Part shown: positions 39,512 through 51,898 of the stretch, one piece after another
Layout of the letters: each line of letters starts with the position of its first letter
How positions within the stretch are numbered: the stretch's first letter is position 1
Source: Candidatus Pacearchaeota archaeon
GTDB taxonomy: Archaea; Nanobdellota; Nanobdellia; Pacearchaeales; GW2011-AR1
Direction of reading: 5' to 3'
Assembly: GCA_026395815.1 (NCBI GenBank)
Contig: JAPLXZ010000010.1
Location: forward strand, 70,659-134,658
Length of the DNA stretch: 64,000 nt
Notes under the pieces: model-generated
Seen by the model: the letters and a program-made list of their open reading frames with translations, nothing else
Told to the model about the DNA's origin: nothing
Databases searched by the model: none
Translations under genes and position numbers: made by a program

Positions 39512-39633
39512 GCCTCCGTCGCATAATGGTATTGCACCGGTCTTGAGTTAAAAAACGGCCTTGTTTGTCAAGGTTTTGTCAAACAAGAGAACCGGGCCTT
39601 TACGGCTTCCAGGTTCGATTCCTGGCGGGGGCG
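39512..39633 (+). tRNA. tRNA-Ser(UGA) with a ~42-nt intron (about 39548-39589) after position 37
   Basis: Acceptor GCCTCCG/CGGGGGC with G73. T-arm CCAGG-TTCGATT-CCTGG. Anticodon stem CCGGT/ACCGG with loop CT-TGA-G. 13-nt variable arm GCC-tttac-GGC. Confidence 0.8.
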
Positions 39634-39635
39634 TT
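39623..39635 (+). repeat. attL core (direct repeat TGGCGGGGGCGTT)
   Basis: Exact copy at 51869-51881. The adjacent 9-mer GTCGGATAA (39637-39645) is inverted relative to TTATCCGAC at 51853-51861. Confidence 0.6.
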
Positions 39636-39694
39636 CGTCGGATAAGGATACGCACTGTTCAGCCCTTAATAAGCTGAACAAGACAACCTTTTAG

Positions 39695-40867
39695 ATGAGC
39701 AAAGAAAACATACACAACTACGACCGACGACTTGAAAGAACTTTAATTAATCTTAAAAAATCAATTCTCTCTGAAGCAGATAAAGAATTATTAATTAAAT
39801 TTCATGATTCTATGTTTCTTCAAGGATTAAGTGTGTCTAAAATAGAACGATACCTCTATGACGCTTATAGATTTGGATTAATGTTAAATGCTGATTTGAA
39901 AAATGCAACTAAAGAGGACATTCAAAAACTTGTTATTGATATAGAAAAAAAAGATTGGACTCCCAGCTCCAAAAGCACATTTAAGCTTATGATTAGAAAA
40001 TTGTATAAGTTTGTTGAGGGAGTTGAAGAACAAGGAGTTTATCCCAACAAAGTTAAATGGATAAAAACCCATATAAGCAAAAGCAATGAAAAACTGCCTG
40101 AAGAACTATTAACTCCTGAAGAAGTTGTTTCTATAATTAGTTGTGCTGATAATTTTAGAGACAAGGCTTTTATTTCTACTCTTTATGAAACAGGTTGCAG
40201 AATAAGTGAACTTGCTTTAGTTAAAATTAAACAAATTCAATTTGATGTTTATGGAGCCAAAATAAATATTAGTGGAAAAACGGGAAGCAGAAGATTGAGA
40301 GTTGTTAGCTCTTCTCCTTTTTTGCAGGATTGGATTAATAATCATCCGTTTAACAAAGAAAATGATTGCCCTGTTTGGATTAGCAGGGAAAGTAAAAAAC
40401 CCTTGAGTTATGAACGTATAGCTTACATCATTAGAAAAGTCGCTAAAAAAGCAGGGATAAATAAAAGAGTTAATCCTCATAATTTTAGACATTCAAGAGC
40501 TACATATCTCGCTAACCATTTAACTGAAGCGCAATTAAAGGAATATTTTGGATGGACACAAAGTTCTGACATGAGTGCAGTTTATATTCATCTATCAATG
40601 AAAGAAACCGAAAATGCTTTATTGAAATTAAGCGGGATTAATGTAAATGAAGAAGAGCAAAAGCAAATCGTTAATCCTAAATGTCCTAGATGTAACACAA
40701 TAAATAAAATTACTAGTAGATTTTGTGATAATTGCGGTTTAATATTAGATGAGAAAATAGGAAAAGACACAATCAAAGCAGATTTAGACAGACAAAGAGC
40801 TGACGAGGTTATGAATAGATTAGCACAAAATCCTAAATTTATAGAATTACTTAATGAATTGAAATAA
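39695..40867 (+). CDS. Tyrosine recombinase/integrase with a C-terminal zinc ribbon
   Basis: HNFRHSRATYLA (HxxR), VYIHLS tyrosine, CPRC...CDNC. An 8-bp hairpin (39656-39680) lies just upstream. Confidence 0.85.
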   Translation: MSKENIHNYDRRLERTLINLKKSILSEADKELLIKFHDSMFLQGLSVSKIERYLYDAYRFGLMLNADLKNATKEDIQKLVIDIEKKDWTPSSKSTFKLMIRKLYKFVEGVEEQGVYPNKVKWIKTHISKSNEKLPEELLTPEEVVSIISCADNFRDKAFISTLYETGCRISELALVKIKQIQFDVYGAKINISGKTGSRRLRVVSSSPFLQDWINNHPFNKENDCPVWISRESKKPLSYERIAYIIRKVAKKAGINKRVNPHNFRHSRATYLANHLTEAQLKEYFGWTQSSDMSAVYIHLSMKETENALLKLSGINVNEEEQKQIVNPKCPRCNTINKITSRFCDNCGLILDEKIGKDTIKADLDRQRADEVMNRLAQNPKFIELLNELK

Positions 40868-42954: not shown

Positions 42955-44037
42955 ATGGATAATCTTATAGCAATGTATCAAAATGGAAGAAGGATATTAT
43001 TTCAAAAAGTTGCAGATATTCCTGAAGCAATAGCTAAAGCCAAGGAATATTTTTCTAAACAAGGAAAGAAGATTGAAGATGAAACTAAAATTTTTTCAAT
43101 AAGAATGTATTTTATTGAGATTGATGATGAAGATAAGAAGAACTATAAGGTTTTAATCAATTCTGTTAATCCAGAAGGAAAGAAAATAAATCAGGACACT
43201 GCTGTTTGCTGGAAATTTGATGGGACATACAAAGGTATAACAATAAAAATTCAGACTTTTGATAAAAAAGATATTACTTATCACATTTGGGAAGTAATAG
43301 AATATTTGTTAAAAGAAGATAACACTAAAACCATCTCTAACTTAAAATTCAATTTAGATGTTAAGACAAAAAAGGGAGAAGATTATAATCAAAAACAAAA
43401 ATTAATTTTATTTTTTAGTAAAAAAGAAAATTGCGGGAAACTGTGGAAATATGAAGAAGCTAGAAAGGCTATGTCTAAAGCTGGTTTCGCGATGGTTGGA
43501 AGAGGCATAGAGGGAGAAAGACCCAGAGAATTTAGATATGATTTAGGTTACCCATTTATTACAAGTGAACAAAATAAAAATGTTCCTGATGGGTCTTTTA
43601 TGGTTGAGTTTCCCTTTCCAACAATGCCAAGAAACGAAAGAAGGAATGCTAATGTGAGTTTAGAAAAAGATGACTGGTCAGAATTACTAGAGATATTAAA
43701 AAAAGAACCAAAGAAACTTAGATGCTTTGAATGTGGTTTATTCGAAGGTGAGACTAATAAGATAGGACAAACAACAAAGTTTGAGAAAGGACATTTAGCA
43801 ACTCATTCTTCTGGAGGGGATGTTAGCAAAGGGAATATAACTGCAATATGTAAATATTGTAATTCTGAACAAAAAAATGTTTATAGCTGGGACAAAATTA
43901 CAGGGAAAAAAATTTATCACCTAGTCCCATTCTTAAAGAATAGAAATTATGAAGAGAAGTTAGAAGCATTAAAATATTTAATGAATCATCTTAAAAAAGA
44001 GGATGTGGATAAAATAGCAAAGGAGATATTAAAATAA
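42955..44037 (+). CDS. HNH endonuclease (candidate restriction enzyme)
   Basis: C-terminal CFECG...KGHLATHSSGG...GN...CKYCN HNH/zinc motif; 3' ends overlap the convergent methyltransferase gene. Confidence 0.65.
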   Translation: MDNLIAMYQNGRRILFQKVADIPEAIAKAKEYFSKQGKKIEDETKIFSIRMYFIEIDDEDKKNYKVLINSVNPEGKKINQDTAVCWKFDGTYKGITIKIQTFDKKDITYHIWEVIEYLLKEDNTKTISNLKFNLDVKTKKGEDYNQKQKLILFFSKKENCGKLWKYEEARKAMSKAGFAMVGRGIEGERPREFRYDLGYPFITSEQNKNVPDGSFMVEFPFPTMPRNERRNANVSLEKDDWSELLEILKKEPKKLRCFECGLFEGETNKIGQTTKFEKGHLATHSSGGDVSKGNITAICKYCNSEQKNVYSWDKITGKKIYHLVPFLKNRNYEEKLEALKYLMNHLKKEDVDKIAKEILK

Positions 44038-45033
44038 TTGATTTTTTATCTCTTCAGCTACTGCTTCAATCATAGGAATTGCTACTGAATTTCCTATCTG
44101 TCTATATCTTTCTCCGTTTGAGCTAATCTTTTTATAAGAATCTGGAAAACCCATAAGTCTAAAGCATTCATTTATTGTTAGCTTTCTAACTTTTCCGTTG
44201 TGATATATATGAAATCTCCCAGCTATTTCAGTAGAAGAGATTGTTGGATGTGTTCCATCTGAAGAATATATTCTGTTGCATTGTTTATGAACTCTGGATA
44301 AATGTTCGGTATTTGGTCTTGCACCTTTCTTTCTTATAGGCTTATTTCTATACCCAACAAAAATCATCCCTGTTTTTTGTTCTTTCCAAAGACTCTTATC
44401 CAAAATAGTATATTCTTCAGGAGATAAAAATTTCATCTCAGAATTTTCTTTTTCTAAAATATCTTTAATTTTAACATTAGGATTTTTTGGTTTAATCTTG
44501 CCAAAATCAAAAGGCTTATCTTTACTGGCGATTATTATTATTCTCTCTCTACTTTGTGCAACCCCATAATCTTTGGCATTTAAAACTTGATAAGTTACCT
44601 TGTATCCTAATTCTTCTAAATGTTTAATGATTATCTTTAAGGTTTGTCTACCATTATGATAGATAAGATTCTTTACATTTTCTAAAAAGAGTATTTTTGG
44701 TTTTTTCTCTTTAGCTATTCTTAATATATCAAAAAATAATGTTCCCCGCGTGTCATCAAATCCTTTTTGCTTTCCTGCTGCACTGAATGCTTGACAAGGA
44801 AAGCCACCCGCCAATATCTCATGGTCAGGGATAGTTTTCTCATCTATTTTTGTTATATCCCCTGCAGGTTTTTCTCCGAAATTTGCTTCATAGGTTTTTG
44901 CACATTCCTCATCCCATTCAGAACTAAAGACACAAGTAAATCCTTGTTTTTCCAATCCCCTTCTTATCCCTCCAATCCCTGCAAATAGGTCAATAAATCT
45001 TACCTCTTCCATATTTTTATTATCTTTTTCCAT
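44029..45033 (-). CDS. DNA (cytosine-5) methyltransferase
   Basis: Motifs FAGIGG, GGFPCQAFS, ENVKNL, QSRER, GNSVAIP. Confidence 0.9.
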   Translation of the reverse strand: MEKDNKNMEEVRFIDLFAGIGGIRRGLEKQGFTCVFSSEWDEECAKTYEANFGEKPAGDITKIDEKTIPDHEILAGGFPCQAFSAAGKQKGFDDTRGTLFFDILRIAKEKKPKILFLENVKNLIYHNGRQTLKIIIKHLEELGYKVTYQVLNAKDYGVAQSRERIIIIASKDKPFDFGKIKPKNPNVKIKDILEKENSEMKFLSPEEYTILDKSLWKEQKTGMIFVGYRNKPIRKKGARPNTEHLSRVHKQCNRIYSSDGTHPTISSTEIAGRFHIYHNGKVRKLTINECFRLMGFPDSYKKISSNGERYRQIGNSVAIPMIEAVAEEIKNQLF

Positions 45034-45043
45034 CTTTTAATTA

Positions 45044-45937
45044 TTATGCTTTTAATATTGATTGTGCTAAACTGCTTACAACTTTCGAAGATGAATCTTC
45101 ATGCAGATTTATCAAAGGGCTTCGCACTTTCGCATTTAGTTTTAGTTTAAATTCGTAATAGTTTCTCTTCGAATATCCGTTTTCTTCCCATGCTTTAATT
45201 CTGTCTGCTTCTCTTTCATAATCTCTTAAAATTTTATCTAATAAAACTAATTTTGGATTAAGCTCAAGACTACTAAGTAATATACTCTGCCAGTCTATAC
45301 CCCTCTCTCGGCATTCCTTATACAAAGCTATACCTTTTACTAAAGTTCTGAGACTCACTTCGCAAACATTTGCATATTTTTCTATTATGCTATATACTTG
45401 GGTCTTTTCTTCAATAGATATATCTTGATGAATTTCTGGGATAATCTCTCTCATCTTAGCTAGTATTTCCTCGTTTGTTGGTTGGAATTGAATAAATATT
45501 CCTCTATCCCGCAAGGCACTAATTTTTTCAGTAAGCTCATCAAATCTGTTACAAATAATAGCTACCCGAGATTTAGTTTCATATTTAGATGGAATATTAT
45601 TATTCTCTAATATTGGTGATGTGCTAAACCATGAGATTTCTTTGAACTCATCTGTATTGCATAACATCTTGAGGAGAGATAAGTTGTTATTATCTTGTAA
45701 CAAGGAGTCCACATCGTCTATTACAATCGGAAGGTCTTTATGCAGATAGGCTTCCATGTAGAGCCGTAGGGGAGTTGTATGGGCGAAAATCATTAGGCAT
45801 TCTTTCTCTTGCATTATTTCCCCTATAAGTCTGCTCTTGGCTAGTCCCGCCTTAGACTCAATTATAAGCAAATCTGCATTGCCATTTTTAAACATATTTA
45901 GGTAGAATCTAAGTTCGTTGTAAGTTTGAATTATCAT
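45044..45937 (-). CDS. P-loop ATPase-like protein with a degenerate Walker A
   Basis: ESKAGLAKS (Walker A-like), IVIDDVD (Walker B), AIICN (sensor-like). Confidence 0.5.
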   Translation of the reverse strand: MIIQTYNELRFYLNMFKNGNADLLIIESKAGLAKSRLIGEIMQEKECLMIFAHTTPLRLYMEAYLHKDLPIVIDDVDSLLQDNNNLSLLKMLCNTDEFKEISWFSTSPILENNNIPSKYETKSRVAIICNRFDELTEKISALRDRGIFIQFQPTNEEILAKMREIIPEIHQDISIEEKTQVYSIIEKYANVCEVSLRTLVKGIALYKECRERGIDWQSILLSSLELNPKLVLLDKILRDYEREADRIKAWEENGYSKRNYYEFKLKLNAKVRSPLINLHEDSSSKVVSSLAQSILKA

Positions 45938-46407: not shown

Positions 46408-46620
46408 TTACTTCTTTTTAGCTCTCATTTTCTTTCTTATAAAAAATCCAACTCCGTAAATAAAGCAGAAAATAACAAAGCCAAGAAAATAGCTGGTGTA
46501 ATATCCGATAGTTATGCAGATTGAAGCAATAAGGCAGAAGATTAAGAACTTCCCTAAGATTCTTCCGCTTTCCTTAAATCCTTCATTATTACTTCCTAAT
46601 ATAATTGCTTCCTTTTTCAT
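46408..46620 (-). CDS. Small 2-TM membrane protein
   Basis: Hydrophobic ORF; ATGA-coupled to the upstream gene. Confidence 0.4.
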   Translation of the reverse strand: MKKEAIILGSNNEGFKESGRILGKFLIFCLIASICITIGYYTSYFLGFVIFCFIYGVGFFIRKKMRAKKK

Positions 46621-47357
46621 TTTGATGAAGTATTATCTTGCTCAAATAAATGTTTAAACCAATTTAGGATTCTTGTGATTAAATCCGCACTCACGCATTT
46701 TTCAGAAGCACAAACATTACTTTCGCATTCAAAACTGTTATCACAACTTTCTTCACTTTGCTTTTGGATAATCATTAATTTATTTTCAGAGCAATATTTC
46801 CCCTCTTTTCTGAATCCAAGAGATAAACAGCTATCATTGACATGACAGCCAGAACATAAATTTTGAGGTGGATTATTTATCTCTGAATCTGGGGAAGGAT
46901 TATTTATGCAATTAGAATTAGCTATCCCTTTCTCTAAATCCGTTAGTTCTGTTGAGCAACCATTTCCTATCCTTGAAGTGCAGTTATTTTCATCTATAAA
47001 AATAAAAGTAGGAACTCCAAAAACTCTATATTGTTTAGCCAAATCATCATTTTCTAAATCTGCAAAATCAGAATTTATATGTCTTACAACTTCTATACAT
47101 CCAGAATTTTGCTCAAATTCATTTATAGCATTGTAACTTGGATGGCTTGAAGCTGTTTCCCCAGCACAACAAGGTGCATTTTCCGAACAGAAATAGATTA
47201 GTTGTCCGCATTTTTGGGACACAGAAGCATTTGAAGAGCCACCTCCATTGATGGGACTAGAAGAATTTGCTTGAGTAGCAGGAATCAATATCAATACAAT
47301 CAAAAATACTATTAAAAAACTACGTAAGAAAGGTTTTTTCTTATCTATCTTAACCAT
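46617..47357 (-). CDS. Secreted Cys-rich protein, possibly with a thioredoxin-like fold
   Basis: N-terminal signal/TM segment, VFGVPTFIFID cis-Pro-type motif, many Cys. Confidence 0.4.
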   Translation of the reverse strand: MVKIDKKKPFLRSFLIVFLIVLILIPATQANSSSPINGGGSSNASVSQKCGQLIYFCSENAPCCAGETASSHPSYNAINEFEQNSGCIEVVRHINSDFADLENDDLAKQYRVFGVPTFIFIDENNCTSRIGNGCSTELTDLEKGIANSNCINNPSPDSEINNPPQNLCSGCHVNDSCLSLGFRKEGKYCSENKLMIIQKQSEESCDNSFECESNVCASEKCVSADLITRILNWFKHLFEQDNTSSK

Positions 47358-47441: not shown

Positions 47442-47723
47442 ATGGAGAACTCAAAATTCTGGAAAGATTACTCTTGGATAATCATGGGAAGTCAGAGAAA
47501 AGAAGTAATAAGATTATTGTCTGATAATCCCATAACTGCCGAAGAACTAAGAAAGAAGATAAACGAGAAAACCAATTTGAAGTTAAGTCTCAGGGAGATG
47601 TCAAGACATTTAACTTCCTTCGCAGAAAAAGGTTTTGTTAAATGTTTAAATTCAAATGCCCCTTACAATAGACTTTATCTAATCACGAACACAGGCAAAA
47701 AGATAAGAGGAAAATTAGTATAG
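47442..47723 (+). CDS. wHTH transcriptional regulator (ArsR-like)
   Basis: 93 aa; ITAEELRKKI...LSLREMSRHLTSFAEKGFV. Confidence 0.55.
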   Translation: MENSKFWKDYSWIIMGSQRKEVIRLLSDNPITAEELRKKINEKTNLKLSLREMSRHLTSFAEKGFVKCLNSNAPYNRLYLITNTGKKIRGKLV

Positions 47724-47783: not shown

Positions 47784-48608
47784 ATGAATGAAGGGAAGAT
47801 TGTTAATTTAGAAGAAAAAGACAAAAAGGATTTAATTAAGGAGTTCAATAAGAGAGGTTATCTTTTAGAAGACAAAATGATAAGTATTCTTTCCCGTAGG
47901 TTATCTACTTTTAATAATCTTTATAAAAATCCGATAGGTATTGAATATGGAAGAAGAAACAATGGTGAAAGAATTGAAATTGATGCTATTGTTGAAATTG
48001 GAGATAAAACTTTTGTGTTAGATGCAAAAAGAACAGAATATGATTGGATTTTTTCATCCTCTATTGAAAGACCAAATAATGCAATTAATGTAGTCTATAT
48101 TCATCCTAAGGAAGGCTATGTTTCACAGCCAATGATTATAGACTCAAGTTTAGGTTTCCTTAACGTGGTTTATCATGATTTTGCGATTAAGTTTGGTGAA
48201 AATAAATTGATAAGAGGGAGAGGAGAGAAAATTTCTTTGCCAGAAGTTAACAGACCAATACATGATGCAATCAGACAGATTCTAAAGGAATCTAAAGCAG
48301 TTTTATTGGAGGGAAGTAAGTATATGTCGGCAGGAAAATTTCTTATTCCAATTATAGTAACTAATGCGAGATTACTCTATCTCGACTTTAAGGATAGTCA
48401 AATTGATGAACAAGGAAACCTCACAGACTGGAACTCATTAAAGGAAGTTAAGGCAGTCGGATATAATTTTCATGAATCTTTTAGTTTTAACACAGAACAA
48501 GGTTTTCATTCCAGCAGACCAGAAAATATTGTAAAGACTGCCTTTATAGTTAATATAAACCACCTAAAAGAAACTATTGAATATCTATCTGGATTACATA
48601 TAATATGA
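47784..48608 (+). CDS. PD-(D/E)xK-fold nuclease candidate (possible restriction endonuclease)
   Basis: IEIDAIVEIGDKTFVLDAKR fits D...(D/E)xK spacing; lies directly upstream of vsr-dcm. Confidence 0.5.
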   Translation: MNEGKIVNLEEKDKKDLIKEFNKRGYLLEDKMISILSRRLSTFNNLYKNPIGIEYGRRNNGERIEIDAIVEIGDKTFVLDAKRTEYDWIFSSSIERPNNAINVVYIHPKEGYVSQPMIIDSSLGFLNVVYHDFAIKFGENKLIRGRGEKISLPEVNRPIHDAIRQILKESKAVLLEGSKYMSAGKFLIPIIVTNARLLYLDFKDSQIDEQGNLTDWNSLKEVKAVGYNFHESFSFNTEQGFHSSRPENIVKTAFIVNINHLKETIEYLSGLHII

Positions 48609-48640
48609 AGAAATAAAAATAATGATTCTTTAATCTCTCT

Positions 48641-49012
48641 ATGGTAGATAGATGCACAAAGGAGCAACGAAGTTATAACATGTCCTGTATTAAATGCAGG
48701 GATACAAAGCCAGAGTTAAGATTAAGGCAATTTTTTGAAAAGAAGGGATTTCTATATCAGTCAGATAAGTATGGAAAACCCGATTTTATCAATAAGAAGA
48801 AAAAGATTGTGATATTTATTGACGGCTGTTTCTGGCATAAATGTCCTGAACATTTCAGATGCCCCGAATCAAATAAAGAATACTGGCTTCCAAAATTAAG
48901 AAAAAATGTTTTGAGAGATAAAGAAGTGACATTAAATTATAAAAATTCTGGATGGAAGGTTATCAGAATCTGGGAGCATGAATTAAGAAATCCTATTCCG
49001 GAAAATTTTTAA
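48641..49012 (+). CDS. vsr: Very-short-patch repair endonuclease
   Basis: RSYNMS...DTKPE...GKPDF...IFIDGCFWHKCPEH. Confidence 0.9.
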   Translation: MVDRCTKEQRSYNMSCIKCRDTKPELRLRQFFEKKGFLYQSDKYGKPDFINKKKKIVIFIDGCFWHKCPEHFRCPESNKEYWLPKLRKNVLRDKEVTLNYKNSGWKVIRIWEHELRNPIPENF

Positions 49013-49034
49013 ATCATTATGCTTTGTTAATAAG

Positions 49035-50084
49035 ATGAAAAGGGGTGTTGTTGCTGTTGACTTATTTTGCGGTGCAGGTGGATTAACAAGAGGTTTACTT
49101 GATTCTGGGATAAACGTTATAAAAGGTTATGATTTTGATGAAAAGGCTTCTGAAACTTATGAAAGAAATAATAAATATTCAAAATTTTTTTCTGCTGATG
49201 TTTCTGAGATTAATGGAAAAGAATTATTACGGGGGCTTGACAGGAAAAAGAATTTCTTCCTTCTTGCGGGTTGCGCTCCCTGTCAGCCATTTTCTTTGAT
49301 AAATCAGTCTGAGAAAGAAGGAGATGGCAGAAAGAATCTTTTATTATCTTTTGGGAGATTGATAAAAGAGACAAATCCTGATTTTATCTTTATGGAAAAT
49401 GTTCCCGGGCTTTTGAATGGAAGAGGAAGGAAAATTTTTGGAAAATTTTTGGAAACATTAAAAGAAAAGAAATATCTTTATGATTATAAAATTCTGAATG
49501 TAATGAACTATGGAGTCCCGCAAAGAAGGAGAAGACTTGTTCTTATTGCGTCCAAATATTCTCAGGTAAAAATTCCTGATTCCACACATGATGATTCAGA
49601 AGACAAAAACCCAATTATAAAACTTAGAGAAATTTTAAAAAAATATCCCAATCTGAAAGCTGGAGAAAAGGATTCTTCTTTCCCAAATCATGAATCTAGG
49701 GGGATGAGTGACCTAAACATAAAAAGATTAGAAATAATAAAACATAATGGTGGTTCAAGAGCTGAACTGCCTAAAAACCTTGTTTTGAAATGTCATTTAA
49801 ATCACAAGGGACATGGGGATGTTTATGGAAGAATGTCTTTTGATGATGTGTCGCCCACATTGACCTGCAAATGCACAAGCATCTCAAACGGTAGATTTGG
49901 ACACCCCACTCAAAACAGGGCTATTTCTGTCAGAGAGGCGGCGGCAATTCAGACTTTCCCCGATAATTATGTATTTTATGGAAATATGAGTGAAAATACG
50001 AAATGGGTGGGGAATGCTGTTCCAGTGAGATTTGCACAGGTCTTTGGCGATTATTTTATAAAGTTGAAGAATCAGCTTAATTAA
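49035..50084 (+). CDS. dcm: DNA (cytosine-5) methyltransferase
   Basis: Motifs FCGAGG, GCAPCQPFS, ENVPGL, QRRRR, GNAVPV. Confidence 0.9.
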   Translation: MKRGVVAVDLFCGAGGLTRGLLDSGINVIKGYDFDEKASETYERNNKYSKFFSADVSEINGKELLRGLDRKKNFFLLAGCAPCQPFSLINQSEKEGDGRKNLLLSFGRLIKETNPDFIFMENVPGLLNGRGRKIFGKFLETLKEKKYLYDYKILNVMNYGVPQRRRRLVLIASKYSQVKIPDSTHDDSEDKNPIIKLREILKKYPNLKAGEKDSSFPNHESRGMSDLNIKRLEIIKHNGGSRAELPKNLVLKCHLNHKGHGDVYGRMSFDDVSPTLTCKCTSISNGRFGHPTQNRAISVREAAAIQTFPDNYVFYGNMSENTKWVGNAVPVRFAQVFGDYFIKLKNQLN

Positions 50085-51679
50085 TGGCAGAAAACTCTCA
50101 AGAGTTTGTAATGAGCTTTGACCCTAAAACCATTGAACATTTGGGTATCAGGATGTATTCAGCTTTACCCCCAGTTATCACGGAATTAATAGCAAACTCT
50201 TATGATGCGGATGCTGAAACTGTATGTATAACCCTTTTAGATTCTAACGGGAAAAAAGAGATAATTGTTGAAGATGACGGGATTGGGATGACCTTTACTG
50301 AATTAAATGATAAATTTCTTAGAATCGGAAGAAATAGAAGAGATGAGGAAGGAATACAAAAGACTTCAAAAGAAAGAAAGATAATTGGTAAAAAGGGGAT
50401 AGGGAAGCTATCTTTTTTTGGTGTTGCACGTGAGGTGGAGATTAACACAAAAAAGAATGGTAAACAAAATTCATTCATTATGAATTGGGAAGATATAAAA
50501 AATTCTACTGAATCAGAATATAATCCTAAAACTATTTTTAAAGATAAAAAATATTCTGGGAATGAACAGGGAACAAAGATTATCTTAAAAGAATTAAAGA
50601 GAGAAAGTGTTTTTGATGCGGAAAGCCTTGCTGATAGCATCTCAAGAAATTTTATAGTGGATTCAAATTTTAAAATCATTATCAAGCACAATTCAGAAAA
50701 GCCGATAATCGTGGATAATGAAAGAAAATATAATGGATTAAAGAAACAGGTTGAGTGGGATATACCCGCAGATATTGATGTTTCTGATTTAGATTATGGA
50801 AATAAAGATAAAATAACTGGGCATCTGATTGCAACAGAACTTCCAGTTTCTCCAAAAACAAATATGAAAGGCATCACTCTTTTTTCAAGAAAGAAGCTTG
50901 TTAATGCTCCTGAGTATTTTTCGGATAGTACTTCAAGCCACATATTCTCTTATTTGACTGGATGGTTGGAAGTAGATTTTATTGATGATTTAGAGGAAGA
51001 TGTTATCTCTACAAATAGGCAATCTTTAAACTGGGATTATCCAGAAATGGCAAAACTCAGGGAATATCTTTCAAAATTAATAAGTAAAATTGAAAGAGAT
51101 TGGCGTATAAAACGTGAAAAAGTTAGAGGGGATAAACTATCCGAATCCACTGGAATAAATATCTCAGACTGGGTCAGTAAACTTCCTCAGGATGTAAAAG
51201 ATAATATTGAGCCTTTGATTAAAGATGTGTTAAAGAATTTTGAACCCACAGAAGAAACCCAAGAGGTTGATAACAAAATAATCAGGGCAATGCATTCTAT
51301 TGCTCCAGAATATACTTACTGGCATTACCGACATTTGCATCCGGAAGTGCAATCTGTTTCTAAAGATTACTATATTTCTAAGGATTATTATACTGCTCTT
51401 TTTGAATCAGCGAAAAAATATGTAAATGCAGTTAAGTCAAAATCTTTGTCTCCCCATATTGAGAGAGAATTATTAGAGAATGTTTTTTCCATTCGAGACC
51501 CAAAATTATCCGTAACGGATAAATTCAAAAAACCTGATGGCACAGATTTTACTCGGGATACATTATCGGGAATTACTGAAGGACATAGAATGTTAGCGAT
51601 TGCCTTGTGGACTGCTTTTAGATGCCCTATAGCTCACGATGAAGTATGTGATTTAAGGGATTCAGGACTATTTACCTAA
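50084..51679 (+). CDS. GHKL (MORC/MutL-like, HATPase_c_3-type) ATPase with a C-terminal TIGR02391-like domain, truncated by an in-frame TAA
   Basis: ELIANSYDADA (N box), EDDGIGM (G1), GKKGIGKLSFFG (G2), C-terminal FRCPIAHDE. The reading frame continues in frame to 51790. Confidence 0.75.
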   Translation: MAENSQEFVMSFDPKTIEHLGIRMYSALPPVITELIANSYDADAETVCITLLDSNGKKEIIVEDDGIGMTFTELNDKFLRIGRNRRDEEGIQKTSKERKIIGKKGIGKLSFFGVAREVEINTKKNGKQNSFIMNWEDIKNSTESEYNPKTIFKDKKYSGNEQGTKIILKELKRESVFDAESLADSISRNFIVDSNFKIIIKHNSEKPIIVDNERKYNGLKKQVEWDIPADIDVSDLDYGNKDKITGHLIATELPVSPKTNMKGITLFSRKKLVNAPEYFSDSTSSHIFSYLTGWLEVDFIDDLEEDVISTNRQSLNWDYPEMAKLREYLSKLISKIERDWRIKREKVRGDKLSESTGINISDWVSKLPQDVKDNIEPLIKDVLKNFEPTEETQEVDNKIIRAMHSIAPEYTYWHYRHLHPEVQSVSKDYYISKDYYTALFESAKKYVNAVKSKSLSPHIERELLENVFSIRDPKLSVTDKFKKPDGTDFTRDTLSGITEGHRMLAIALWTAFRCPIAHDEVCDLRDSGLFT

Positions 51680-51868
51680 AAAGATTGTCTAGATGCCCTA
51701 AGCATCCTTTCGCATCTTTTTAAAAGATTAGATGATTCTACATTAAAAGAAAAAACTGCAAATGATAATACTGAAACCACATCAACTTAGCAACTTTTAA
51801 AAACTCCTTCTCTTTAATATATAGATATATTCAATTAAATCACTGCGTTTCTTTATCCGACTTCCGCA

Positions 51869-51881
51869 TGGCGGGGGCGTT
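51869..51881 (+). repeat. attR core (direct repeat TGGCGGGGGCGTT)
   Basis: Exact 13-mer copy of the tRNA-Ser 3' end. Confidence 0.6.
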
Positions 51882-51898
51882 TATTCAATTTCTTAACT

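What the first reader, a model, noticed from the sequence alone, without database searches (positions are those of the whole stretch)
47784..51790. Four-gene block on the integrated element: PD-(D/E)xK nuclease, Vsr, Dcm and a MORC-like GHKL ATPase fused to a TIGR02391-like domain
These are same-strand, tightly spaced genes (33-, 22- and 0-nt gaps; the dcm stop overlaps the ATPase ATG). The genes are: a 274-aa protein with a D...DAK nuclease-type motif, a clear Vsr, a clear C5-methyltransferase, and a 531-aa GHKL ATPase with N, G1 and G2 boxes. The ATPase C-terminus resembles the rare TIGR02391 (Hypoth_Ymh) domain. Comparative-genomics work on MutL/MORC homologues in R-M contexts has noted Dcm/Vsr-linked GHKL ATPases, and these clusters usually include extra partners (Z1, AIPR, helicases). 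I recall this from memory and did not check it. This version is minimal, archaeal, has a different effector-domain fusion and rides a tRNA-integrated element. I cannot place it in a named, experimentally characterised system. It could be a methylation-dependent or ATP-driven restriction or abortive-infection module.
Basis: partly seen in the sequence, partly recalled or inferred. Interest (0 to 1): 0.7.

Follow-up and report, generated by a model that had tools for sequence, protein, structure and literature searches.

The report
NmeAI-type Dcm/Vsr/GHKL-HEPN restriction-like module
This is an archaeal copy of a widespread, already catalogued but never biochemically tested restriction-modification-like cassette (cytosine methylase, Vsr repair nuclease and a GHKL ATPase fused to a HEPN domain); its ATPase gene carries a stop codon here, and the upstream 274-aa gene is not part of the conserved cassette.

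Summary
The 274-aa protein has only a sequence motif in favour of a nuclease.

The conserved unit is not a four-gene system. In 80 genomes from very different bacteria and archaea, a Dcm gene lies directly upstream of the GHKL-Ymh gene in 71. Vsr is present in 29. A homologue of the 274-aa protein is present in none, and its few relatives sit alone in unrelated contexts.

The cassette is homologous to the Neisseria NmeAI system (M.NmeAI, CCGG; putative R.NmeAIP; Vsr). Its architecture is already in the literature. Orlowski and Bujnicki (2008) listed GHKL + Hypoth_Ymh as a putative restriction enzyme subfamily. Anantharaman et al. (2013) described paraMORC fused to a Ymh-type HEPN domain and proposed a PrrC-like RNase role.

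The first ~390 residues also match the BbrUII/HgiDII restriction enzymes, which carry a Shedu-like nuclease motif where this protein has HEPN.

The window's allele has a single G-to-T change (GAA to TAA at 51677) that removes the last conserved HEPN helix. An otherwise identical public contig is intact.

The block lies at the right end of a 12.2-kb tRNA-integrated element.

Verdict: a new member of a known, experimentally uncharacterised kind. Interest is modest.

The parts
50084..51790 (+). GHKL (paraMORC) ATPase + S5-like middle domain + helical linker + C-terminal Ymh/TIGR02391 HEPN domain. This is the NmeAI-type 'R' gene. A TAA at 51677-51679 cuts the product to 531 aa; the intact allele is 568 aa.
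   Evidence: PF13589 4e-24 and PF09509 3.9e-8. NF050001 BbrUII/HgiDII, 1.9e-74, over residues 8-390. PADLOC REase_II, about 1e-34. Intact allele P0001: TIGR02391 47 bits against a cutoff of 39.45. AF2 model with Foldseek matches to Hsp90/HtpG N+M domains, E about 1e-13. R513 is conserved in 65/65 and H518 in 64/65 homologues. The only difference from contig L089 is at 51677.
49035..50084 (+). C5 cytosine DNA methyltransferase (Dcm). It is the obligate partner of the GHKL-HEPN gene, and its stop overlaps the ATPase start.
   Evidence: PF00145 1.4e-61. TIGR00675 165.9 bits. PADLOC MTase_II 1.3e-89. A Dcm lies directly upstream on the same strand in 71 of 80 loci.
48641..49012 (+). Vsr very-short-patch repair endonuclease. 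It is a facultative accessory of the cassette.
   Evidence: PF03852 1.8e-21. TIGR00632 129.5 bits against a cutoff of 97.85, full length. Present in 29 of 80 related loci, at variable positions.
47784..48608 (+). 274-aa protein with a PD-(D/E)xK-like motif (E62, R63, E65, D67 ... D80-A-K82-R83). It is probably co-transcribed here but is not part of the conserved cassette.
   Evidence: The family has only 13 proteins. The motif is invariant. No family, PDB or fold match. Homologues sit alone in unrelated contexts. Absent from all 80 cassette loci.
51677..51679 (+). Premature TAA. It is GAA (Glu) in an otherwise identical public contig. It removes 37 residues, including the last conserved HEPN helix.
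   Evidence: The lost residues D534 (62/65) and R548 (63/65) are conserved. A helix is predicted at 532-550.
39623..39635 (+). Left attachment core: the 3' end of the tRNA at 39512-39633. An inverted arm follows at 39637-39657, then the integrase gene at 39695-40867.
51869..51881 (+). Right attachment core: an exact 13-bp copy of the tRNA 3' end, preceded by the inverted arm at 51832-51852. It marks the right end of the 12.2-kb element, just after the ATPase gene.
   Evidence: Two matches in the window, 0 expected by chance. The arms match at 18 of 21 positions.

Best explanation
Genes 48641-51790 are a Vsr-Dcm-R cassette of the NmeAI type. It is cargo at the right end of a 12.2-kb tRNA-integrated element in an archaeon.

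The self-sufficient core is the translationally coupled pair: Dcm plus a paraMORC GHKL ATPase fused to a Ymh-family HEPN domain.

Proposed mechanism (inferred, not shown):
1. Dcm marks the host's own DNA with 5-methylcytosine.
2. Vsr, where present, repairs the T:G mismatches that arise when 5mC deaminates.
3. The GHKL + S5 module works as an ATP-driven dimeric clamp. It responds to unmethylated incoming or replicating DNA, or to loss of Dcm activity.
4. That response switches on the C-terminal effector.
5. In the sister BbrUII/HgiDII proteins the effector carries a Shedu-like PD-(D/E)xK nuclease motif, and the named enzymes of that family cut DNA. Here it is a HEPN domain with the Rx4H motif, so the likely output is RNA cleavage leading to growth arrest or abortive infection, not site-specific DNA cutting.

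In this window the R gene carries a GAA-to-TAA nonsense change that removes the last HEPN helix. The effector is therefore probably dead, while Dcm and Vsr look intact.

The upstream 274-aa gene is a rare, lineage-specific neighbour and possibly a nuclease. It is not a component of the system.
For: Identity of the cassette:
- Domain hits.
- 37.8% identity over 96% of the protein to the decayed dcm-R-vsr locus of Neisseria gonorrhoeae.
- The literature describes R.NmeAIP as GHKL + Hypoth_Ymh (PMC2441816) and NmeAI as an M + R + Vsr system (PMC3787668).

The core is a pair:
- Dcm lies immediately upstream on the same strand in 71 of 80 loci across many phyla. Vsr is present in 29 of 80. No other gene is conserved.
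- R and M divergence is correlated: Spearman 0.56, median identities 46% and 48%.

The domains look active:
- ATP-binding residues are invariant in 65 of 65 homologues. HEPN R513 is conserved in 65/65 and H518 in 64/65.
- Ymh is classed as a HEPN family with a conserved catalytic motif, and its paraMORC fusions in R-M neighbourhoods were proposed as PrrC/RloC analogues (PMC3710099).

Effector swap:
- The same N-terminal ~390 residues match BbrUII/HgiDII (1.9e-74).
- Loci L074, L075, L078 and L079 match residues 10-385 at 46-48% identity. In L074 and L079 the C-terminus instead reads RIDF...IIELKRP, and L074 gives a weak SduA_C hit.
- A GHKL + DUF4263 protein, VcSduA, is a validated defence protein that needs both its ATPase and its nuclease (PMC12137116).

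The R gene appears costly or dispensable:
- It is nonsense-mutated here, frameshifted in N. gonorrhoeae and interrupted by an IS element in a meningococcus (PMC3787668).

Defence context:
- The pairs sit among type I, type III and HaeII R-M genes.
Against: - No member of this family has been tested biochemically, as far as I could find. REBASE-derived resources, including PADLOC REase_II, treat the protein as a DNA restriction enzyme.
- The HEPN fold of the C-terminal domain rests on the Pfam/TIGRFAM match, the Rx4H motif, the predicted helices and the 2013 classification. I did not run a fold search on that domain alone, and the motif lies in a low-confidence loop of the model.
- How unmethylated DNA would be recognised is unknown. 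No DNA-reading domain was identified.
- R is about as conserved as M. That fits a protein that does not read sequence but does not prove it.
- The nonsense codon could be an assembly error. It is one base in one assembly.
Confidence: 0.6

Rival explanations
1. The protein is a conventional ATP-assisted Type II restriction endonuclease, as REBASE labels R.NmeAIP. It binds the unmethylated Dcm target (CCGG in Neisseria) and cuts DNA, with the catalytic site in the Ymh domain or in the unassigned middle region.
For: - PADLOC REase_II models match at about 1e-34.
- NCBIfam BbrUII/HgiDII restriction enzyme matches at 1.9e-74 over residues 8-390.
- Gene order and translational coupling with a Dcm are typical of R-M systems.
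- The literature lists it as a putative restriction enzyme subfamily (PMC2441816).
- The middle region holds invariant acidic and polar residues: D298, D301, D306, T310, R312.
Against: - No known DNase fold or motif was detected.
- The C-terminal domain belongs to the HEPN superfamily. By the 2013 analysis most HEPN domains are RNases (PMC3710099).
- The match to real restriction enzymes stops exactly where their nuclease domain begins: profile positions 1-405 of 659.
- The score is far below the family cutoff (251 against 550 bits).
- The 'P' in NmeAIP means putative.
- The conserved middle residues lie in the Hsp90-like middle domain and may simply be the ATP sensor loop.
Confidence: 0.25
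2. One reading: a novel four-gene system in which the 274-aa PD-(D/E)xK protein is the DNA-cutting partner of the GHKL ATPase, much as MutH or Vsr work with MutL. It might even compensate for the truncated effector.
For: - Same strand, with only a 32-nt gap to vsr.
- The D...(D/E)xK-type motif is invariant in its family.
- GHKL ATPases often work with separate nucleases (PMC2292703).
- A small wHTH gene lies just upstream.
Against: - No homologue of the 274-aa gene lies in any of 80 cassette loci.
- The closest cassette, L001 (72% R identity), has a type III Mod/Res pair upstream instead.
- The 274-aa relatives sit alone, next to housekeeping or small unknown genes.
- The nuclease fold is unconfirmed: Foldseek E is 0.07 or worse, and hhalign against the HgiDII C-terminus gives 0.3% probability.
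Confidence: 0.07
3. The GHKL protein is a dedicated MutL-like helper for very-short-patch repair. It would stimulate Vsr at T:G mismatches in lineages that lack MutL, and would not be a defence or toxin component.
For: - The module is a MutL-type GHKL + S5 module.
- E. coli MutL stimulates Vsr (cited in PMC2292703).
- Vsr is adjacent here and in 29 of 80 loci.
Against: - Vsr is absent from 51 of 80 loci, whereas Dcm is nearly always present.
- A conserved HEPN catalytic motif has no role in such a function.
- The gene is repeatedly inactivated while Dcm or Vsr persist.
- It is embedded in defence islands.
Confidence: 0.05

Closest known systems
NmeAI restriction-modification system of Neisseria meningitidis (M.NmeAI, CCGG; R.NmeAIP, putative; V.NmeAIP)
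   Same: - The same three genes: m5C methylase, GHKL + Hypoth_Ymh 'R' protein, and Vsr.
- The R proteins are homologous: 37.8% identity over 96% to the N. gonorrhoeae copy.
- The R gene is prone to inactivation.
   Different: - Gene order is V-M-R here and M-R-V in Neisseria.
- The host is an archaeon, and the cassette rides an integrase/tRNA element.
- The methylase specificity here is unknown. This Dcm is only 33-43% identical to most partner Dcms.
- The R allele is nonsense-mutated.
paraMORC-Ymh(HEPN) proteins described by Anantharaman et al. 2013 (PMC3710099), building on the paraMORCs of Iyer et al. 2008 (PMC2292703)
   Same: Exactly this domain architecture, in R-M neighbourhoods. It was predicted to be a latent RNase analogous to PrrC/RloC.
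   Different: That description is computational only. The survey here adds that the tight partner is specifically a Dcm (71 of 80 loci directly upstream) and that no separate restriction enzyme is needed in the locus.
BbrUII/HgiDII family restriction enzymes (NCBIfam NF050001; GTCGAC) and GHKL-type Shedu VcSduA (paraMORC3)
   Same: - The N-terminal ~390-400 residues (GHKL + middle domain) are homologous: 1.9e-74, and 46-48% identity to L074-L079.
- A Dcm lies directly upstream in the BbrUII/HgiDII-like loci.
   Different: - Their C-terminus carries a PD-(D/E)xK motif (RIDF...ELKRP) with a weak SduA_C hit. Here it is a HEPN domain.
- The score is below the family cutoff (251 against 550 bits).
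- VcSduA is described without a linked methylase.
PrrC / RloC anticodon nucleases linked to type I R-M loci
   Same: An NTPase fused to a C-terminal HEPN-type RNase, encoded within R-M gene neighbourhoods. Some cassette loci lie inside type I R-M loci (L029, L021, L028, L077).
   Different: The ATPase is GHKL, not ABC. The constant partner is a Dcm, not a type I enzyme. The resemblance is functional only, with no homology outside HEPN.

Membership tests
NmeAI-type cassette (Dcm + GHKL/Hypoth_Ymh 'R' protein, with or without Vsr) | N-terminal GHKL ATPase with intact N, G1 and G2 boxes | tested here: met
   PF13589 4e-24. E34, N38, D41, D64, G66, G68, G102, G105 and G107 are invariant in 65/65 homologues.
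NmeAI-type cassette (Dcm + GHKL/Hypoth_Ymh 'R' protein, with or without Vsr) | C-terminal Hypoth_Ymh / TIGR02391 domain | tested here: met
   Window allele: PF09509 33.6 bits against a cutoff of 25, profile positions 1-97 of 119. Intact allele P0001: full-length PF09509 match, and TIGR02391 47 bits against a cutoff of 39.45. The window allele is truncated and falls below the TIGR02391 cutoff (35 bits).
NmeAI-type cassette (Dcm + GHKL/Hypoth_Ymh 'R' protein, with or without Vsr) | m5C methyltransferase gene adjacent on the same strand | tested here: met
   The same arrangement occurs in 71 of 80 related loci.
NmeAI-type cassette (Dcm + GHKL/Hypoth_Ymh 'R' protein, with or without Vsr) | Sequence homology of the R protein to the Neisseria gene | tested here: met
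   tblastn: 37.8% identity, 96% coverage, 5e-103 to N. gonorrhoeae. The ORFs there are dcm fragments, GHKL and Ymh fragments, and vsr.
NmeAI-type cassette (Dcm + GHKL/Hypoth_Ymh 'R' protein, with or without Vsr) | CCGG specificity and restriction activity | not testable with these tools
   This needs methylome data and biochemistry. Restriction activity is only putative even for NmeAI.
BbrUII/HgiDII family restriction enzyme (NF050001) | Whole-protein score at or above the curated cutoff (550 bits) | tested here: not met
   251 bits, and only profile positions 1-405 of 659.
BbrUII/HgiDII family restriction enzyme (NF050001) | C-terminal PD-(D/E)xK (Shedu/DUF4263-like) nuclease domain | tested here: not met
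   It is replaced by the Ymh domain. The motif is seen in L074 and L079, and L074 gives a weak SduA_C hit.
HEPN superfamily (C-terminal domain) | Conserved Rx4-6H motif | tested here: met
   The sequence is FRCPIAHDE. R513 is conserved in 65/65 and H518 in 64/65 homologues.
HEPN superfamily (C-terminal domain) | All-alpha helical bundle fold | tested here: inconclusive
   The AF2 model is helical over residues 420-550. No fold search on the isolated domain was possible. The classification rests on PMC3710099 and on weak PADLOC Aga_HEPN and PD-Lambda-3_B hits.
HEPN superfamily (C-terminal domain) | RNase activity | not testable with these tools
   Needs biochemistry.
MORC sensu stricto | The MORC-specific motif and clade membership (as opposed to paraMORC) | tested here: inconclusive
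   The literature places the Ymh fusions among paraMORCs (PMC3710099). The best structural and sequence matches here are Hsp90, HtpG and TRAP1, not MORC. No phylogeny was made.
PD-(D/E)xK nuclease superfamily (274-aa protein) | Catalytic D...(D/E)xK motif on a beta-hairpin | tested here: met
   D67 and K82 are invariant, position 80 is always D or E, and E62, R63, E65 and R83 are also invariant. Strands are predicted at 69-72 and 75-82.
PD-(D/E)xK nuclease superfamily (274-aa protein) | Recognisable restriction-endonuclease-like fold or profile match | tested here: not met
   No Pfam, NCBIfam, PADLOC or PHROGs hit. No PDB sequence hit. Foldseek against PDB gives E of 0.07 or worse, and against BFVD 0.13 or worse. 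hhalign against the HgiDII C-terminus gives 0.3% probability.

The most novel reading that the evidence does not exclude
The widespread Dcm + paraMORC-HEPN pair may not be a DNA-cutting restriction system at all. It may be a methylation-gated abortive-infection or addiction module. A conserved GHKL clamp would sense unmethylated DNA, or failure of its partner methylase, and fire an RNase. The BbrUII/HgiDII and GHKL-Shedu enzymes would then be the same sensor carrying a DNase effector instead. That would make this a natural effector swap on one sensor chassis, present in archaea, CPR bacteria and pathogens such as Neisseria.
Probability: 0.4. Interest if true: 0.6.

Novelty: new member of a known kind. 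Interest (0 to 1): 0.3.

Why it matters
On its own, this locus adds an archaeal, element-borne and apparently inactivated copy to a family that REBASE and two comparative-genomics papers already describe.

The family is the more interesting object:
- It is large and spans both prokaryotic domains.
- It is almost always welded to a Dcm.
- It carries an RNase-type domain where a restriction nuclease is expected.
- It shares its sensor half with proven restriction enzymes (HgiDII, BbrUII) and with a proven Shedu defence protein.
- I found no experimental work on it.

A test of whether it cuts RNA or DNA would settle a question left open since 2008. That question is what the non-nuclease C-termini of GHKL 'restriction enzymes' do. 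The answer would show whether the 'Type II REase' label on thousands of genome annotations is correct.

Tried and rejected
- **Profile searches on the 274-aa protein** (Pfam, NCBIfam, PADLOC, PHROGs): no hit.
- **PDB sequence search with the 274-aa family profile:** no hit.
- **AF2 model of the 274-aa protein against PDB and BFVD:** nothing significant. A scatter of sub-threshold hits to nucleases (McrC, OkrAI, NERD, exonuclease V) is suggestive only.
- **Gene-fission idea.** I tested whether the 274-aa protein is the HgiDII-type nuclease domain split off as a separate gene. hhalign gave 0.3% probability and aligned only the 20-residue motif, so I rejected it.
- **Shared element genes.** I looked for genes shared between this element and the contigs carrying 274-aa homologues. 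None were found.
- **'R more conserved than M'.** This holds for the window's own Dcm (33-43% identity against 40-60% for R). It does not hold family-wide, where the medians are 46% and 48%, so I dropped it as a general claim.
- **ARAGORN** found no tRNA. Rfam found the intron-containing tRNA.
- **The repeat finder** with a minimum length of 18 missed the 13-bp att core. A k-mer script found it.
- **Literature search for TIGR02391:** zero papers.
- **Searches for experimental work on GHKL + HEPN or Dcm defence systems:** none found.
- **Not attempted:** inferring the methylase target from motif avoidance. 64 kb at 31% GC is too little sequence.

Full report
**1. The observation**

- 47784-48608, 274 aa
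- 48641-49012, 123 aa
- 49035-50084, 349 aa
- 50084-51679, 531 aa

All are on the + strand. The gaps are 32 nt and 22 nt, and the dcm stop overlaps the ATPase start by 1 nt.

Profile searches confirm three of the four assignments.
- Vsr: PF03852 at 1.8e-21, and TIGR00632 at 129.5 bits against a cutoff of 97.85.
- C5 methyltransferase: PF00145 at 1.4e-61.
- GHKL ATPase: PF13589 at 4e-24, with a C-terminal Hypoth_Ymh/TIGR02391 domain, PF09509 at 3.9e-8 over residues 416-521.

The reading frame continues past the TAA at 51677-51679 to 51790.

A 3,082-nt public contig (L089) is identical to window 48817-51898 except for one base. It has G where the window has T at 51677, so GAA (Glu) becomes TAA. 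The intact protein (P0001, 568 aa) matches the full Ymh profile and passes the TIGR02391 cutoff.

The window's product lacks 37 residues. These include a confidently predicted last helix (532-550) and conserved residues D534 and R548.

The 274-aa protein matches nothing in Pfam, NCBIfam, PADLOC or PHROGs.

**2. The integrated element**

- Rfam finds an intron-containing tRNA at 39512-39633. ARAGORN missed it.
- A tyrosine integrase follows at 39695-40867 (phrog_1, 4.7e-34).
- The last 13 nt of the tRNA region, TGGCGGGGGCGTT, recur exactly at 51869-51881. That is 79 nt after the end of the extended ATPase frame and just before the convergent helicase gene. There are two matches in the window and none in 100 shuffles.
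- Just inside each core lie inverted arms that match at 18 of 21 positions.

The host is archaeal. The evidence is the flanking P-stalk, L10 and L1 ribosomal genes, the tRNA intron (inferred from its 122-nt span), and the nearest relatives of the cassette, which come from uncultured archaea, Woesearchaeota and Nanoarchaeota.

**3. What the conserved unit is**

The ATPase-Ymh protein belongs to a large family. There are 2,722 hits at E of 1e-5 or better, and the best 120 all have the same architecture and a length of about 550 aa.

I fetched 80 loci from species-representative genomes. They span CPR bacteria, Proteobacteria, Actinomycetota, Nitrospirales, Planctomycetota, Firmicutes, methanogens and DPANN archaea. 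I then searched their ORFs with the window's proteins.
- A Dcm lies immediately upstream on the same strand in 71 of 80 loci, usually overlapping or within a few bases. It is within four genes in 76 of 80.
- Vsr is present in 29 of 80, in variable positions: before dcm, after R, or between them.
- No other gene is conserved.
- No locus contains a homologue of the 274-aa protein.

Many pairs are flanked by opposite-strand genes. Others sit among type I, type III or HaeII R-M genes.

R and M divergence is correlated (Spearman 0.56), with similar median identities of 46% and 48%. They travel as a unit.

The closest relative of the whole cassette, L001, is from an uncultured archaeon. Its R is 72% identical and its M 82% identical. 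It has the same V-M-R order, but a type III Mod/Res pair lies upstream instead of the 274-aa gene.

**4. The 274-aa protein**

Its family is tiny, with 13 proteins. On longer contigs its relatives lie alone, next to housekeeping genes (diphthamide synthase, a Tag glycosylase) or small unknown genes. None has a dcm, vsr or GHKL gene nearby, and none shares any other gene with this element.

The family conserves E62, R63, E65 and D67, then (D/E)80-x-K82-R83. These fall on predicted beta strands, which is the pattern of a PD-(D/E)xK nuclease.

There is no other support.
- The PDB sequence search found nothing.
- Foldseek against PDB and BFVD gave no significant match, with best E values of 0.07 and 0.13.
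- hhalign against the HgiDII-type C-terminal domain aligned only the 20-residue motif, at 0.3% probability.

I treat it as a possible nuclease that is a neighbour of the cassette, not a part of it.

**5. Comparison with what is known**

Three strands of prior work cover this architecture.

*REBASE-based classification.* Orlowski and Bujnicki (PMC2441816) listed five restriction enzyme subfamilies with an N-terminal GHKL domain. They stated that R.NmeAIP has a C-terminal Hypoth_Ymh domain, and that the C-terminus of R.HgiDII was unassigned.

[quoted passage not shown] M.NmeAI methylates CCGG (PMC4676702 and PMC7973814).

I confirmed the homology directly. N. gonorrhoeae chromosomes carry a locus with dcm fragments, GHKL and Ymh fragments, and vsr. 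It is 37.8% identical over 96% of P0001 and contains the motif FRNPVQHE.

*Comparative genomics.* Anantharaman et al. (PMC3710099) classified Ymh as a HEPN family with the catalytic motif conserved. They noted its fusion to paraMORC GHKL ATPases in R-M neighbourhoods and proposed an analogy to PrrC/RloC. Iyer et al. (PMC2292703) defined the paraMORCs and their links to Dcm, Vsr and nucleases.

PADLOC models call the protein REase_II, so standard tools would report a Type II R-M system.

I found no experimental study of the GHKL-Ymh proteins.

**6. Relation to BbrUII/HgiDII and Shedu**

Residues 8-390 match NCBIfam NF050001, the BbrUII/HgiDII family restriction enzyme, at 1.9e-74. The match covers only profile positions 1-405 of 659, and the score of 251 bits is far below the cutoff of 550.

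Four of the fetched loci (L074, L075, L078, L079) encode 620-622-aa proteins that match residues 10-385 of the query at 46-48% identity, each with a Dcm directly upstream. L074 matches the NF050001 profile end to end at 329 bits, which is still below the 550-bit cutoff. I call these BbrUII/HgiDII-like on that basis.

In L074 and L079 the C-terminus reads ...RIDFVC...IIELKRP.... L074 also gives a weak SduA_C hit. That points to a Shedu-type PD-(D/E)xK nuclease domain.

This is the paraMORC3 architecture. A GHKL + DUF4263 member, VcSduA, was recently shown to defend against phages and to need both its ATPase and nuclease residues (PMC12137116).

The AF2 model of P0001 (pLDDT 79) matches the Hsp90, HtpG and TRAP1 N-terminal and middle domains over about 400 residues, at E of about 1e-13.

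So there is one conserved ATP-driven GHKL + middle-domain chassis, next to a Dcm, carrying either a DNase or a HEPN domain.

**7. Mechanism**

Shown by sequence:
- The ATP-binding residues are intact and invariant, and the Rx4H motif is invariant or nearly so.
- The pair is obligately coupled to Dcm.
- Vsr is facultative.
- The R gene is repeatedly inactivated: by a nonsense codon here, by frameshifts in the gonococcus, and by an IS insertion in a meningococcus (PMC3787668).

Inferred:
- Dcm marks self DNA.
- The GHKL clamp responds to unmethylated DNA or to failure of the methylase, and activates the C-terminal effector.
- Because that effector is a HEPN domain, the output is probably RNA cleavage with growth arrest or abortive infection. 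It could equally act as post-segregational killing that stabilises the element.
- Vsr only offsets the mutational cost of 5mC.

My confidence that the cassette is the NmeAI/paraMORC-Ymh type is about 0.9. My confidence in the RNase-effector mechanism is about 0.45. The main rival, a true DNA-cutting Type II enzyme, gets about 0.25.

In this window the truncated allele is probably non-functional, leaving a methylase and Vsr. This is a common end state for R-M cassettes.

**8. Verdict**

This is a new, archaeal, element-borne member of a kind that is already catalogued but has never been characterised experimentally. It is not a new four-gene system.

The interest lies in the family rather than in this locus.

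Noticed in passing
window 42955-45033: A second R-M-like pair lies on the same element. A 360-aa protein with a weak HNH motif (42955-44037, +) is convergent with a second C5 methyltransferase (44029-45033, -; PF00145 5.2e-102), and the two overlap by 9 nt.
   Followed up: partly
window 39512-39633: Rfam finds a tRNA spanning 122 nt (42 bits), presumably with an intron. ARAGORN in bacterial mode reports no tRNA anywhere in the window.
   Followed up: partly
window 47442-47723: A 93-aa winged-helix protein (weak HTH_20, FUR and Csa3 hits) lies 60 nt upstream of the 274-aa gene on the same strand. It may be a local regulator, in the way C-proteins control R-M systems.
   Followed up: no
window 45044-45937 (-): A 297-aa protein matches PHROG 1250 (unknown function, 4.1e-20). 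This is the only phage-family hit among the element's unknown genes.
   Followed up: no
window 46408-47357 (-): A cysteine-rich 246-aa protein with an N-terminal hydrophobic segment is followed by a 70-aa membrane protein. Both lie on the element, with no family assignment attempted beyond ORF reading.
   Followed up: no
L051, L053-L057, L064, L070, L076 (gene two positions upstream of R; three positions in L051): In nine bacterial loci a second, ~780-795-aa protein lies directly upstream of the dcm-R pair on the same strand. The one member I checked (L054) has a weak GHKL hit (HATPase_c_3, 6e-4). This looks like a three-gene subtype of the cassette.
   Followed up: partly
L029 7688-12971; also L021, L028, L077, L046: In several genomes the dcm-R pair lies next to putative type I R-M genes. 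In L029 it is flanked by an HsdS gene and an M78 peptidase (Pfam), and a ~970-1,040-aa HsdR-like gene lies nearby in these loci (assigned by eye only). The arrangement recalls prrC inside the EcoprrI locus.
   Followed up: partly
L003, L032, L042: One Vsr gene lies between two m5C systems. The order is a second Dcm, then a ~355-368-aa gene of one cluster whose L032 member is a HaeII restriction endonuclease (PF09554, 1.1e-130), then vsr, then the dcm-GHKL/Ymh pair.
   Followed up: partly
L074 and L079, C-terminal ~180 aa of the 620-622-aa proteins: The C-terminal domain of HgiDII-like enzymes was 'unassigned to any fold' in the 2008 classification. It shows a clear RIDF...IIELKRP motif, and L074 gives a weak SduA_C (Shedu) hit. 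HgiDII and BbrUII may therefore be paraMORC3/Shedu-type nucleases coupled to a Dcm.
   Followed up: partly
L093 (NZ_CP119142.1, 1548357-1557964): A 2.17-Mb Neisseria gonorrhoeae record is labelled as a plasmid in PLSDB. It carries the NmeAI-type locus with both dcm and the GHKL-Ymh gene broken by frameshifts, while vsr is intact.
   Followed up: partly
L090 2218-3332: In the contig of the 82%-identical relative P0002, the gene downstream of R is a nucleotidyltransferase followed by a HEPN protein. This is a classic MNT-HEPN toxin-antitoxin pair sitting next to the cassette.
   Followed up: no
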